Of a stretch of 64,000 bases of DNA, positions 2,541 through 61,400 are shown piece after piece. The translations under genes were made by a program, and so were the position numbers. Below the pieces are notes generated by a model. The model was given only the letters and a program-made list of their open reading frames with translations, did not search any database and had not been told where the DNA came from. This DNA is from Phoronis australis (Eukaryota > Animalia > Phoronida), in assembly GCA_002633005.1 (NCBI GenBank), contig NMRA01000874.1, positions 1-64,000 of the forward strand. Direction: 5' to 3'. How positions within the stretch are numbered: the first letter of the stretch is position 1; every line of letters starts with the position of its first letter.

Positions 2541-5500
2541 TCACTTCTTGGCTTTACTTGCAGCGGCAGCCTGTGCAGCTTTCTTCGCTCGTATCAACTC
2601 CACCAGTTCCTAAGCAACAACAATTAATTTATGTTAATTTATGTTAATTTAAACAGAAAAAATAATCAAACCAGTATAGCACGCAACTATCAAAGTGCAT
2701 GCTTATTGAAAGTTACCATCATGTTCTTTCCAATAACCACCCTGACCTGGGCACTTGGAAAACGAGTTCTCCTGGTTTTCGGACGGCCCGTTACTTTGGG
2801 ACAAGAATAAATATTTCCAAAATTAGTTTTTCATAGTCCACGAAATTTGTACAAGGTCCAAAAACTGTTTTTTAATGGTTGGACAATAAACCTCGGATTT
2901 CTGTCCCGCAAATTTCGAACAAGGAAAATGCCAGAAACGCTAATATCGAATCGATGCAACTCATGCCGCTAAAGTGTTCAATGGATGGTTACTACTCTTA
3001 TGTGGCTTGAACCTGAGAATCGTACAACAGGATCTGATATTTTTACCTCGTCTTAAAGCAATAACTTGTATGAAGTTGGCTGAAACCGTCCTAAAGCACT
3101 ACAAGTACTGCAGTACTTATTGCCTAAATAACAGAAAACCCCTTTCAGAAATAAAAGAAACAAATTAACCATCTTACTGACAAGCAAAACAATCTATTCA
3201 GTTCTTCAAAATAATTTCCACTTGGGTCCCAGTCCTCCACACAAGCAAAACAATCTATTCAGTTCTTCAAAATAATTTCCACTTGGGTCCCAGTCCTCCA
3301 CACAAGCAAAACAATCTATTCAGTTCTTCAAAATAATTTCCACTTGGGTCCCAGTCCTCCACACAAGCAAAACAATCTATTCAGTTCTTCAAAATAATTT
3401 CCACTTGGGTCCCAGTCCTCCACACAAGCAAAACAATCTATTCAGTTCTTCAAAATAATTTCCACTTGGGTCCCAGTCCTCCACACAAGCAAAACAATCT
3501 ATTCAGTTCTTCAAAATAATTTCCACTTGGGTCCCAGTCCTCCACACAAGCAAAACAATCTATTCAGTTCTTCAAAATAATTTCCACTTGGGTCCCAGTC
3601 CTCCACACAAGTTCAGGCCTCAAAACTCATCCCCATCAACTGAACTTTTCACCCACTTCACCCACGTCACACCTGAACACCCCTCCCACTCTTAGTTAGG
3701 ATCCATAGGACCACAGTCTCCCCTCTCTACTTACCCTAGACCCCAACATGCACTCCTTGCCCCTACAGGGGCTGCACTCTATTACCTTCTCCGCTATATA
3801 GTTACTTACCTTATACCTCAACATACAGTCCTTCTTACTCCTACAGGGGATACACTCGGCTATCTTCTCCCACCTCTGTTCTGTGCTTGCCGGATACGTC
3901 TTCAAAGCCTGCTCCAGCAGTTTCTGTTCCTCAGCACTCCAGGGGGCGGGATTAGTACCCGTCTCGGCCAGTTGGGCTTCTGCAGCACCTGGCGTGGACG
4001 AGACAATTTTTTATAAAACAGCAATTTAATTACAAAAAGTCATATTTTGGAAGAACAGCATAAAATGTCGCTGTAAGTAAGACATGTATATGTAGCACGT
4101 CTTCAGTGAGAAATTTTCTTATAAAGCATGCTTAAGTTTACATTCCGTGACCAACAAAAGGCTGACCTCAATAACGCCATGAGATTGTACAAACATGTTA
4201 CATCAAAGAACGAGTTAGTGAACGCTCCTTTTGTGAAAAATTTTCATCTAGACTACTTTCCATTGTAAAGCTAATCTCAACTCCTTCCCTACTAAAGATT
4301 AGAAGTGACTAATTACTGGGTTTCATTTAAATGATGAAGATCCCTTTTGGTACTGGAAAAACAAACCTTGATATGGTAAATGTACAGTCATTTTGTCCAT
4401 ATTTTACGGACTTGAGATTCAGTTCCAAAGATCAAGCCCGTACAGAGACCCTGGACTTGATCTCTCTGCGGAGTATTCAGACCTGTTACGAGATCCGCCC
4501 CCCCCACCCCCGACATTAGGGAATCTCCGTTATTGTTTTTAGTGTTTTATTCTACAATCACAGAGGGCACATCCAGTGGTGAACCAAGTCCGTGAGATAT
4601 GTACGAAATAGCTATACACCTACTACATCAAGGTATGGTTTTCCCAGATCTTCACTAAATATTTTCAAGATTTCTGTGGTCAGAAAAAATTGACAGTTCT
4701 CTATAGCTTAAGACCATACTTGACACAATAAAACTGCCACGTCAGACAAACTCAGGGGTGGGGGGTGGGGGGTGTGAGTGAAAGCCCTGCCCCCTTTTTC
4801 CTTGTTCGCCCTTTAAATGTTGTCTTCTGCATATGAATTGTTATAAGTGTATTGTTCAACATAATAAACTAGAAAAAAGAAAGAACTGAAAGACAAAATG
4901 AAAAAAAAAAATCTGTTTTCCCCAATCTCACGAATCACTTCTAATCTGAGTAAGCAAGAATTTAAGGTCAAATTAAGGTCAATTTCATGATGGTACGTGG
5001 GCTAAATCAAAAGTTAGTTATTTGACAGTCAAGACCAATTCATAGCAGTTGGAAACTTTTGCCAATTTTTGGTCAAGATAAGAATGACTGGAAATGCCAA
5101 GAAGACTACAGAAAGATAGAGAACACCTAAACAATTTCTGAGGGCCCCCATGGAAAGCAGTGAGAACTGATGGGGCTACCCTTGTTGTAAATATTACAAT
5201 AATAAATAAAGTTTGGTCAAGCGCTTACTCATATATCGTGCACTGATATCAGAAGCATCAATGTGCCCCTTTTTCGGATTGGCTTTTGTCTGCAGCAGTT
5301 GCTCAGTCGACACTTGCTCATTGGCCGCCTTTCGTGGGTCCATCTTCTGCAAAGTCTTGGCTTTGTTCAACACCTCCTTCGCTGACCTAGAACTCTCCGG
5401 CAGGTGCTGTGTTATGAAACTGGCAATAGTTTCCCACCTAGATTGACAGGTAGTCTCTGTATTACACTGGCACACCTCCATCTTCATCACGTGGGAAAAT

Positions 5501-58400: not shown

Positions 58401-61400
58401 ATATATACCAAGTATGAGGCCATGAAACGTCGCTGTGTCTGTCAGTGGCCTACATTTCATCGGATCGGTTGTTGATCAGTTTTTGATTATGGAGAATTGT
58501 AGTCGGGCATGAAAATATAAACAAATATAATTAATCCAAGGCGTGAGAACATAACGTTTTTTATAACCTCTTTGATGTCTAACTCATTCGTGAGGTTTCT
58601 GTGTGGTCCTCTGGGTGTAAGATGTTTTCGCCAGTTCTTTTTCTCAGCCCTTCAAATACCTAAAAATCTATAACAGCGAAATAAAATAACACATTTTTTC
58701 AATAACTTGATGTATTTGTAAGGGTTTTACATCGAATTTTGGGTGTAAAATGACGAGTTCAAGCTGACACAAGTAAGCGTGTTGTGAAGTGCTGAACAGA
58801 CTGCATTTGAACCTGTGATGTCATTGGTTAATTTCAACACCTCCGTCAGGTGTCAGGTAAAAGAGCTGTACTTGCTGTTATCGAGTAAAACTACTCGATT
58901 TAAATTGATACAAACTAGGTTGTTTTTTGGGTAGCTTTCTCCTTTAAAGTAACTAGCTTAGATCTAGACTACCATTTACAAATATAATGGTTAGGTGCGT
59001 TAGTAACTAGCTTAGGTCTAGACTTGTCTACCATTTACAAATGCAATGGTAAGCTGTGTTAAAAGTAACTATTTAAACTTAGATTCTCCAAGTTTCATGA
59101 TGTACAGTAAATATTGCAAATGTTGATCAGGTCTTTGATGCGTTATCAGGAACCCAGCTCTTGTTGTGTGGATTTAAGAGCGTCTCGTATGCGTATTTTT
59201 CTGAGGGGGCAGACATGGTTCATACACATCACCGTGATGGATCTGAGTGAAATTCATTGGGAATACTTCCATCAAGACAACAAAGGCTCATGGCCATTTT
59301 CAAAGTGGTCCTTGGCAATTTTAGGTTCTGGCATTCCTCAGCTCCTTCGAAGTGTCTTCATTGGCAGATATGTTTTCATCAAAAGTTCAGCATCTGGTAT
59401 TTTTGATCAACCAAAATAGACTTGCACCTCCTTTACTTCAATATGCTTATTAAATAAGTTGAACCATTTATGGCTTGAAAGTTGACAAGCAGAGGGTGAC
59501 ACTCGCCAATTTTCTGATGACTAACAATGTGCCTCAAGTAGCAGTTACAGCTTTCTGACATATTTCTAGTTTGAGAAACAAGTTCCCTGCGAAACCGTAA
59601 AATAATGTATTTTGTTTTGTCAGGTAGAGAACCTCGTCTCAATTGAGCTAGCTTACATAAACACCAAGCATCCGGACTTCACTGAGGCCAGCCTTATACA
59701 CAGGACACTGACAGAGAACATAGACAATGACTTGAAGAAATTCTCAAAAGATGGCGCCACCAAGTCACTAGCTCTAGAAGACAAGGTAGTGTTGGAATTT
59801 GTCACATTGAGAGAAAGTGTAAATGTACACGGAGAGTGNCGAGAAGAGAGGGCAGAGGAGTGTGTGACTGGGAAAGAGAATTTTTACATTTACAATTGTC
59901 GATCAAATTTAAAATTGACCTGTAGGTGTCACTGTTAGTCACACTTGCTCATTATTGAAAACTGCATATTAATAAAATGAAGTAATGTTACATTATGACT
60001 CAAATCCAGATCTGTCAATTCAGGTATTCTGTTTCATACCGTTAGGAGGTTTCATGCTGCAGTAAAAAATAGTTTGACCTATGATTTTTTACCTGTATTA
60101 CTTTCTTTTGAGCAGTTTACCTTTGTCCTAAATGTCTTCAATACACCTGTTTACTTTGTAAACAGGCTGTTTTCATTAATTAAAAATGTGCCTTTGTGTT
60201 ATTTTGTACACAGTCTGTAAGTTTGTATTACCAAGATGCTCCGCTCCCGTGAAGCCGGTCCATGTTTTCTGATCAACTTCAGTGTACCATCAAAGTTCCT
60301 GTGTATCTCACGTGGATGTTGTTATATTTATTAAGGCTCGTAAGAAGGAAGCTTCAGCTGACCTGATGAATGGCCAATCAGCATGGACCAGCTGGATGAA
60401 GGGTCGGGGGGATGCATCCCAGCCGTCGAGCGAGACAAACTCCCCCGCTAAAGCACCTCCTGCCAAGGGTGTCAACCTGTTGCCCGAAGTGGTAAGTGCA
60501 CAATAAGGCCTGATGCTTATATATGAAGAACAAGTACCTGCTAAGACACTGGCGAACCATTTATTTCAATAGCCAGCTCCAGTTTTTAGTATCTTACTTA
60601 TATCCGGTCAGATTATCTCCACATGCGGTATTTCCAGACTCACAAAATGCCGTCGATTTCGGCAACATGTTGTTAGGTAGTTCTAGGTGAGCAAACTGTG
60701 GGTGAGATGGTATTGCTGCAAACTGTGGGTGAGATGGTATTGCTGCAAACTGTGGGTGAGATGGTATTGCTGCAAACTGTGGGTGAGATGGTATTGCTGC
60801 AAACTGTGGGTGAGATGGTATCACTGTCCGGTGTCTGTCTAATAAACTTCTCTGTTGACACGCAATAGAATGTTTTACTGTTGTGTTTACATTTCATAAC
60901 AACTCTTAACTGATACAGTCGTAAATTAACTTTCGTCAACGTTTCAGTCAGTGGATGTTTTTGATATGGTTCGTCAGAAGGTTGTTTATCGTTTGACAAT
61001 GAACTTGGCGTTTAGTTCCTATTTTTGTTGTATTTATTTTAAACTGGTCCCCTCACTGAAAGTCATACAAACAGTGATTACTGTGTAATGACTGATAGTT
61101 TTTGCTTCTTACTGATGTCTTATTTAAAAGACTTTTTCATTGAAAACCTTGATAATATCCACCTTGACATGTTCGGACGCGTCTCCATGACCGTCGTTAT
61201 CAACAGTTGGTTAATCTTCTTCTAGAGTAGGCAGTGTGGCCTTGTGGGATATGTGTCCGCTTCCTGTACTCAAGGTCATGGGTTCGAGTCCCACCAGGGC
61301 ACACTGTGATATCCTTGAGTCAGGTCTCTAGCTCCTCAGCTTGGTTTTAACTATTATTAACAAAGCAGTTAAATGACTGCAGCTGATCAATGCAATGAGC

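What the first reader, a model, noticed from the sequence alone, without database searches (positions are those of the whole stretch)
3729..59070. Recurrent splice-junction tandem arrays in all three housekeeping genes
Seen: at least six independent arrays have a unit made of exon edge + splice site + intron edge: DNAJC2 exon 15 donor (75-bp offset, x2), DNAJC2 exon 11 donor (44 bp x3), CXXC1 SCFVK donor (43 bp x>=2.5), CXXC1 exon 3 acceptor (~48 bp x5), DNM1L exon 9 donor (41 bp x~20), DNM1L exon 11 donor (~55 bp x3). They range from perfect to heavily decayed, so the process has recurred over time. Several other arrays start within ~50 bp of a splice site (6805-6982, 11028-11302, 41225-41380, 61389-61527). 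Inference: either tandem duplication is targeted to exon/intron boundaries (for example transcription/splicing-coupled repair or pre-mRNA-templated events) or the background rate is very high and junction-spanning events are simply tolerated. Either way the spliceosome must pick the right site among many near-identical decoys, and the arrays are raw material for exon extension or intron gain.
Basis: partly seen in the sequence, partly recalled or inferred. Interest (0 to 1): 0.8.

Follow-up and report, generated by a model that had tools for sequence, protein, structure and literature searches.

The report
Splice-junction 'mirage' minisatellites in housekeeping genes
In three housekeeping genes of a marine invertebrate, six exon-intron borders have been copied head-to-tail 2 to 20 times, a repeat type already known from lancelets and humans; where RNA could be checked the original border is the main one spliced, and the copies are likely harmless by-products of a genome that duplicates short DNA very often.

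Summary
All six arrays exist: 6 of 84 modelled splice sites have a junction-spanning copy in the adjacent intron, far above shuffles. Two corrections: the CXXC1 'SCFVK' array abuts an assembly break that hides its exon, and the DNM1L exon-11 array is split by an 864-bp TTAA-flanked element. These are 'mirage' minisatellites, published for amphioxus; human F7 and ABCA7 carry the same layout. This scan noted such arrays before (19 notes, at least 12 genomes). The animal is not a lancelet and is probably a lophotrochozoan. Background duplication is very high: 12.7% of intron bases lie in tandem arrays. Spanning arrays are 2-3 times above a uniform null (6 vs 2.2-3.3 expected, P 0.016-0.11). Spanning plus near arrays give 13 of 24 vs 5.1-6.7 (P 0.0003-0.005), but the window and cut-off were chosen after seeing the data. 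Spanning units are longer, as chance placement predicts. RNA joins the exon-proximal donor at both DNAJC2 arrays (35 and 28 reads); minor decoy use is not excluded. Targeting is suggested, not shown.

The parts
3729..3880 (-). DNAJC2 exon 15 3' end plus donor, duplicated once (75-bp unit, 71% identical); decoy donor at +75 is in frame and stop-free (would add 25 residues)
   Evidence: RNA joint at the proximal donor 24/6/5 reads
9156..9291 (-). DNAJC2 exon 11 donor array, 44 bp x3.1, perfect; unit 19 exon + 25 intron bases, 4-base terminal direct repeat; decoy donors at +44 and +88 identical to the true one, stop codon immediately after the exon
   Evidence: RNA joint at the proximal donor 15/12/1 reads
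39749..39853 (-). CXXC1 'SCFVK' donor array, 43 bp x2.4 visible; cut off by an assembly break (N at 39856) that hides about 37 codons of the exon
45949..46210 (-). CXXC1 exon 3 (PHD finger) acceptor array, about 49 bp x5.4; unit about 31 intron + 18 exon bases; true acceptor at 45966
   Evidence: spanned without mismatch by a 492-base contig of DNA run X1
55375..56210 (+). DNM1L exon 9 donor array, 41 bp x20.5; unit 35 exon + 6 intron bases; true donor after 55409; CpG-type decay in the copies
58048..59067 (+). DNM1L exon 11 donor array, about 55-59 bp x3, true donor after 58073, interrupted after the first copy by a mobile element
58084..58947 (.). Non-coding element with 19-nt terminal inverted repeats beginning and ending in TTAA, inserted into the exon 11 array; high-copy in reads
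   Evidence: arms 58084-58102, 58929-58947; depth, loose ends at 58084
6810..6978 (-). Intronic array 41 bp x4.6, 13 nt from the DNAJC2 exon 12 donor; junction not in the unit
11029..11302 (-). Intronic array 26 bp, 23 nt from the DNAJC2 exon 9 acceptor; holds an N at 11177
41235..41376 (-). Intronic array 15/30 bp, 25 nt from a CXXC1 donor
61388..61527 (+). Intronic array 27 bp x5.2, 45 nt from a DNM1L acceptor
2624..2651 (-). Further near array, 10 bp x2.8, 14 nt from the DNAJC2 last-exon acceptor
14309..14361 (-). Further near array, 13 bp x4.1, 22 nt from a DNAJC2 donor
42769..42812 (-). Further near array, 23 bp x1.9, 27 nt from a CXXC1 donor
2541..21708 (-). DNAJC2 host gene, exons 2-16 (exon 1 not placed)
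36990..47069 (-). CXXC1 host gene, coding exons, with an assembly break at 39856
49451..63886 (+). DNM1L host gene, 16 coding exons

Best explanation
Six splice junctions in these three genes are tandemly copied into the adjacent intron, and they are likely passive 'mirage' minisatellites: products of a very high, likely junction-blind rate of short tandem duplication that survive because the exon-proximal site remains the main one spliced. Steps. (1) Shown: introns here are full of tandem arrays, and each spanning unit derives from the gene's own coding edge plus intron bases. (2) Inferred: a first duplication by slippage or repair at short direct repeats, then growth and homogenisation by unequal exchange. 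(3) Shown for two DNAJC2 donors, inferred from open frames for the rest: the exon-proximal site is used. (4) From the F7 literature, not tested here: the most upstream of several identical donors is preferred. (5) Inferred: rare decoy use mostly creates early stops and would be removed by nonsense-mediated decay. (6) Inferred: the 2-3-fold excess at and near splice sites reflects retention (DNA next to exons is older and cannot be deleted across a splice site) plus selection of this window. (7) Shown: copies decay, mostly at CpG, and one array took a mobile-element insertion.
For: 4849 of 38062 intron bases are in TRF arrays; 12.6% of 8691 sampled intron positions have a local duplicate. 18 of 24 events do not span a junction, and 11 of 24 are over 50 nt from one. 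Spanning units have median 46.5 bp vs 27 for the rest; length-biased chance predicts 47. No unit has an end exactly at the junction or an exon-exon join. Terminal direct repeats are alike in a spanning array (4 bases) and in non-spanning ones (5, 5, 3 bases). Like-for-like control: 6 of 84 sites vs 2.3-3.3 expected, P 0.027-0.11. RNA: proximal donor joints 35 and 28 reads vs 25, 26 and 39 at decoy-free DNAJC2 joints. At exon 15, where decoy use would be in frame and stop-free, the proximal joint equals 0.9 of the implied exon depth. 22 of the 24 decoy donors scored in four arrays... see full report: all but the exon-15 decoy meet an early stop. In the DNM1L array 42 of 102 CpG-column cells changed (41 as C>T or G>A) vs 38 of 595 others. 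The same layout and outcome are published for amphioxus (PMC3087553, PMC3902484) and human F7 (PMC1557585).
Against: Spanning plus near events are 13 of 24 against 5.1-6.7 expected (P 0.0003-0.005). Donors are 5 of 42 vs 1.1-1.6 expected (P 0.005-0.023), acceptors 1 of 42. In the five donor arrays the unit tends to end only a few bases into the intron (mean 24% of the unit, P 0.02, post hoc). Retention bias was not measured, only partly mimicked by masking repeats, and duplicate coverage at 40-150 nt from splice sites was lower (5-6%), not higher, than deeper in introns (12-14%). At exon 11 the proximal joint is only 0.55 of the implied depth vs 0.8-0.9 elsewhere, and 53 joints were not shown. 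The RNA animals are other samples and gave no intron coverage, so they may lack some arrays.
Confidence: 0.7

Rival explanations
1. Tandem duplication is mutationally biased to exon-intron borders, above all just downstream of donors, for example through breaks or slippage at sites of co-transcriptional spliceosome assembly, polymerase pausing or R-loops in germline-expressed genes.
For: 13 of 24 events span or lie within 50 nt of a site vs 5.1-6.7 expected. 5 of 42 donors are spanned. Six of seven near arrays begin 13-27 nt from the site. Donor units end about 4-25 nt into the intron. All three genes are transcribed. The published source calls the generating mechanism unclear (PMC3087553).
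Against: Spanning-only excess is borderline (P 0.016-0.11; 0.056-0.29 without the gap-side array). The threshold-free rank test for near arrays gives P 0.07. Window and 50-nt cut-off were chosen after seeing the data. Unit lengths fit chance. No breakpoint sits exactly on a junction.
Confidence: 0.2
2. The arrays are kept as regulatory devices: decoy sites tune transcript level through nonsense-mediated decay or yield extended isoforms, as the human ABCA7 repeat does by length-dependent mis-splicing.
For: GT is kept in 19 of 19 DNM1L copies and several decoys score as well as the true site. The exon-15 decoy is in frame and stop-free. ABCA7 retains one repeat unit in some transcripts (PMC5954066, passages).
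Against: No decoy joint is among the 15 best-supported joints. The exon's last G is lost in 13 of 19 DNM1L copies, halving their donor score, with a CpG-decay pattern. Arrays are decayed or interrupted by a mobile element. Other non-CpG columns are as invariant as the GT.
Confidence: 0.06
3. The arrays are assembly artefacts.
For: The assembly has single-N joins in or beside two arrays (11177, 39856). The 44-bp array is perfect and was not checked against DNA reads.
Against: A separately built 492-base contig of DNA run X1 spans the CXXC1 acceptor array with 0 mismatches (X1 may be the source sample). Copies differ from each other by 10-30% with a CpG bias. One array holds a mobile-element insertion.
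Confidence: 0.04

Closest known systems
Amphioxus 'mirage' minisatellites (Adh3, globins BflGb6 and BflGb9, troponin C, PGBD5): PMC3087553 (passages of abstract, section 16, legends, references), PMC3902484 (passages). Canestro et al. 2002 known only through these citing papers (not held).
   Same: Tandem units spanning an exon-intron border, at donors or acceptors; unit sizes overlap (Adh3 10-72 bp); many but not all copies keep GT or AG; normal splicing persists; the boundary copy differs from the homogenised body; proposed as a route to intron gain.
   Different: The host is not a cephalochordate. Here the rate is counted: 6 of 84 sites in three adjacent housekeeping genes. Length polymorphism and somatic instability were not tested.
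Human F7 intron 7 37-bp VNTR: PMC1557585 (abstract and Discussion read)
   Same: The first unit holds the exon-intron junction; 5-9 identical donors follow; only the most upstream is used, as at the DNAJC2 44-bp triplicate.
   Different: A single human locus tested by minigenes; the scanning rule was shown in mammalian cells and is only assumed here.
Human ABCA7 intron 18 25-bp VNTR: PMC5954066 (passages)
   Same: Each unit carries the donor; use of the next unit's donor gives an out-of-frame transcript.
   Different: The unit begins at the GT rather than inside the exon; decoy use and length effects are documented there and not seen here.

Membership tests
Mirage minisatellites | Head-to-tail repeat of minisatellite-sized units | tested here: met
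   Units 41-75 bp, 2-20.5 copies; the DNM1L exon 11 array is tandem only apart from an inserted element.
Mirage minisatellites | Unit spans an exon-intron boundary of the host gene | tested here: met
   6 of 84 sites, alignments cross the junction; the exon side of the CXXC1 SCFVK case is cut by an assembly break.
Mirage minisatellites | Many but not all copies keep the GT or AG signal | tested here: met
   GT in 19 of 19 DNM1L exon 9 copies; AG in 3 of 4 CXXC1 acceptor copies.
Mirage minisatellites | Regular splicing at the exon-proximal site is not disturbed | tested here: inconclusive
   Proximal joints seen at 2 of 6 arrays; for the other four the joints were among rows not shown; minor decoy use not excluded; RNA animals not genotyped.
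Mirage minisatellites | Concerted evolution of the array body, boundary unit set apart | tested here: met
   DNM1L exon 9: 13-15 of 19 copies share changes absent from the exon copy; identity falls from 0.90 at lag 1 to 0.86 at lag 12.
Mirage minisatellites | Copy-number polymorphism or somatic instability | not testable with these tools
   DNA runs come from one sample; RNA runs gave no depth in the intron bins checked.
Spliced-mRNA-templated (retro) duplication | Copies join exon to exon and lack intron bases | tested here: not met
   All six units contain intron bases next to the splice signal.
Intron gain by tandem duplication | A new intron or exon formed from the duplicate | tested here: not met
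   Gene models are complete with the proximal sites and align to homologues; no decoy joint among those shown. Intron positions were not compared with other species.

The most novel reading that the evidence does not exclude
In this lineage short tandem duplications are born preferentially at and just inside splice donors of transcribed genes, so that about 1 donor in 8 acquires a decoy array: a splicing-coupled mutational process, shared with lancelets and other marine animals, that writes splice sites back into the genome and feeds intron gain.
Probability: 0.17. Interest if true: 0.72.

Novelty: new member of a known kind. Interest (0 to 1): 0.3.

Why it matters
The repeat type is published, so the arrays alone are ordinary. 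What adds a little is the density (6 of 84 splice sites in essential genes) in an animal outside the lancelets, and a measurable 2-3-fold excess at and near splice sites. My seven literature searches listed no genome-wide test of whether such repeats are targeted, and no report from a lophotrochozoan; the library lacks most subscription journals. A genome this rich in them could settle whether the bias is mutational or due to retention, and offers natural tests of donor choice among identical sites. In practice such arrays also break assemblies and mislead gene models, as at CXXC1 here.

Tried and rejected
No whole genome is held, so the genome-wide enrichment test could not be run. No RNA holder was listed by the index; RNA runs came by species label. 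The first read lay (39700-59699, with DNA contigs) was swamped by interspersed repeats: the 15 joints shown were repeat-derived and 212 were hidden, so no splice joint of CXXC1 or DNM1L was seen and the missing CXXC1 exon was not recovered. The second lay showed 15 of 68 joints; three expected DNAJC2 joints were themselves hidden, so the table gives only a weak bound on decoy use. The idea that the animal is a lancelet was rejected. The idea that the near arrays are decayed junction-spanning arrays was not supported. Selection against decoy donors in the DNM1L array was not needed: the weakening change sits in a CpG and the other two CpGs decay alike (copies are not independent). The decoy scan returned no rows for the CXXC1 SCFVK array; its decoys at +43 and +86 are read. 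The careful tree did not finish; the quick tree was used. Canestro 2002 could not be read. Look-ups for earlier enrichment tests or same-genome notes on this repeat type returned nothing; one search listed only exon-duplication notes. Events left out: the 454-bp unit array inside a dispersed element, the coding 15-bp array, and clusters inside masked repeats; the mask and event list were drawn by hand.
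Full report
What the window is. Three multi-exon animal genes: DNAJC2 (minus), CXXC1 (minus) and DNM1L (plus), named from homologue searches and mapped by tblastn. 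Hand-set exon models give 42 introns, all GT-AG, with open frames of 603, 419 + 149 and 693 residues that align over their length to homologues. DNAJC2 exon 1 and untranslated exons were not placed. Stranded RNA runs cover the exons on the expected strands. The animal is not a lancelet: its DNM1L lies outside the three Branchiostoma rows (support 100) and is nearest by path to mollusc and annelid rows, in an unresolved fork of a quick tree of 25 rows. The best CXXC1 hits are Lingula and Lineus at 72%. I read this as a probable lophotrochozoan and go no further.

Observation. A junction probe was run on all 84 sites against each site's own intron and 60 shuffles. TRF alone finds four of them; the 75-bp pair is too decayed, and the DNM1L exon 11 array is split by an 864-bp element with 19-nt inverted ends and TTAA at both tips. 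The exon parts of the units encode conserved residues (for example the PHD finger and the second Myb-like domain), so the arrays grew out of the exon edge, not the reverse. The CXXC1 SCFVK array ends beside a single N, where about 37 residues of the Lingula homologue have no match; its exon and true length are unknown. Seven more arrays begin 13-45 nt from a splice site without containing it.

Are they real? One array (CXXC1 acceptor) is spanned without mismatch by a 492-base contig of DNA run X1, which may be the source sample. The DNM1L exon 9 copies differ from the exon copy mainly at CpG: 42 of 102 cells, 41 of them C>T or G>A, vs 38 of 595 elsewhere (17 full-length copies, not independent). 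The genes are CpG-poor (observed/expected 0.33-0.77) next to 0.98 in an intergenic stretch, which fits gene-body methylation (my knowledge, not tested). An assembler would not invent this pattern. The perfect 44-bp triplicate was not checked in DNA reads.

More than chance? The background is high: 4849 of 38062 intron bases lie in 21 TRF arrays, and 12.6% of 8691 sampled intron positions have a local duplicate. TRF-only: 4 of 21 arrays span a junction vs 1.9 expected (P 0.10); 4 of 20 vs 1.4 without the 454-bp array (P 0.04); 7 of 17 others lie within 50 nt vs 2.7 (P 0.009); a threshold-free rank test gives P 0.07. Same probe at intron control positions: 6 of 84 vs 3.3, 2.9, 2.8 or 2.3 expected (P 0.11, 0.07, 0.066, 0.027) as repeats and the six arrays are removed from the control; donors alone 5 of 42 (P 0.005-0.023), acceptors 1 of 42. 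Pooled list of 24 events: 6 spanning vs 2.2-2.8 (P 0.016-0.051; 0.056-0.14 without the gap-side array), 7 near vs 2.9-3.8, together 13 vs 5.1-6.7 (P 0.0003-0.005). So a 2-3-fold excess is present in this window. It is not proof of targeting: the window and the 50-nt cut-off were chosen after seeing the data, the nulls assume equal retention, and the repeat mask is approximate. For passive origin: spanning units are longer (median 46.5 vs 27 bp), matching the 47 bp that length-biased chance gives, and no unit ends on a junction or joins exon to exon. Against it: donor units tend to stop a few bases into the intron (mean 24% of the unit, P 0.02, post hoc and resting on an inferred boundary for CXXC1).

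Splicing. In three RNA runs of other samples (about a fifth of each read), the exon-proximal donor is joined at DNAJC2 exon 15 (24, 6, 5 reads) and exon 11 (15, 12, 1), against 25, 26 and 39 reads at three decoy-free joints. No decoy joint is among the 15 rows shown, but 53 rows are hidden, including three expected true joints. Relative to implied exon depth the joints are 0.9 (exon 15), 0.55 (exon 11) and 0.8 (exon 12, no decoy); the lower value may come from ambiguous placement on the triplicated 19 bases or from some decoy use. Intron bins had no depth, so the RNA animals may not carry the arrays. One search scored 24 decoy donors in four arrays: 23 lead to a stop well before the native end, and only the exon 15 decoy is in frame and stop-free. 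That decoy could not be hidden by nonsense-mediated decay, and there the proximal donor dominates, though the decoy is also weaker (9.9 vs 12.1 on a matrix from the window's 42 donors). The exon 11 decoys equal the true site (11.2). In DNM1L exon 9, four decoys score 8.1-8.4 against 8.2 for the true site, and 13 of 19 have lost the exon's last G and score about 4. (The figure '22 of the 24' in the best-explanation cell should be read as 23 of 24, as given here.)

What is known. Ebner et al. [quoted passage not shown] Pavelitz et al. 2013 (PMC3902484; passages; author name recalled) add PGBD5 and troponin C. Borensztajn et al. 2006 (PMC1557585; abstract and Discussion) show that in human F7 the most upstream of several identical donors is used and the rest are functional but silent. 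The ABCA7 repeat (PMC5954066; passages) shows that decoy use can occur. PMC10078293 (passages) did not address enrichment at junctions in what I saw. No supplements were read. Earlier scan notes report the same kind in annelids, abalone, sharks, a ray and other invertebrates; I had reached the mirage and F7 papers before that look-up and did not test those notes.

Verdict. Real, correctly described, and a new instance of a known repeat type in a further animal group. Most likely a passive outcome of very frequent tandem duplication, tolerance through first-site choice, and retention next to exons (0.7). A mutational bias to splice donors stays open (0.2) and is testable genome-wide. Interest 0.3.

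Noticed in passing
window 16600-19720 (+), DNAJC2 intron: LTR-retroelement-like insertion on the opposite strand: one frame with zinc knuckle, aspartyl protease and reverse transcriptase, a second, overlapping frame with RNase H; the reverse transcriptase is split between frames and the element appears cut short at its 3' end.
   Followed up: partly
window 7402-8925, DNAJC2 intron: Dispersed element with internal 454-bp tandem units; RNA depth 260-430 almost wholly on one strand, over ten times the host exons, with loose ends at both tips, so copies elsewhere are abundantly transcribed.
   Followed up: no
window 58084-58947: TTAA-flanked inverted-repeat element starting AG and ending CT inside the TTAA; this end pattern recalls Kolobok-type DNA transposons (recalled, not tested).
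   Followed up: partly
window 31456-31620 and about 33598-33672 (+): Possible small two-exon gene for a secreted peptide: hydrophobic N-terminus, a dibasic site near the exon end, GT donor; no Pfam match for exon 1.
   Followed up: partly
window 45496-45594 (-): Coding 15-bp tandem repeat in CXXC1 exon 4 giving a His/Ser/Lys-rich five-residue repeat in frame.
   Followed up: no
window 39856; also 11177, 59839, 24636-25092: Single-N joins hide sequence; the one at 39856 removes about 37 codons of CXXC1, so any automatic model of this gene will be wrong there.
   Followed up: yes
window 9850-10362: About 510-bp high-copy element with inverted ends in a DNAJC2 intron, bounded by RNA loose ends.
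   Followed up: no
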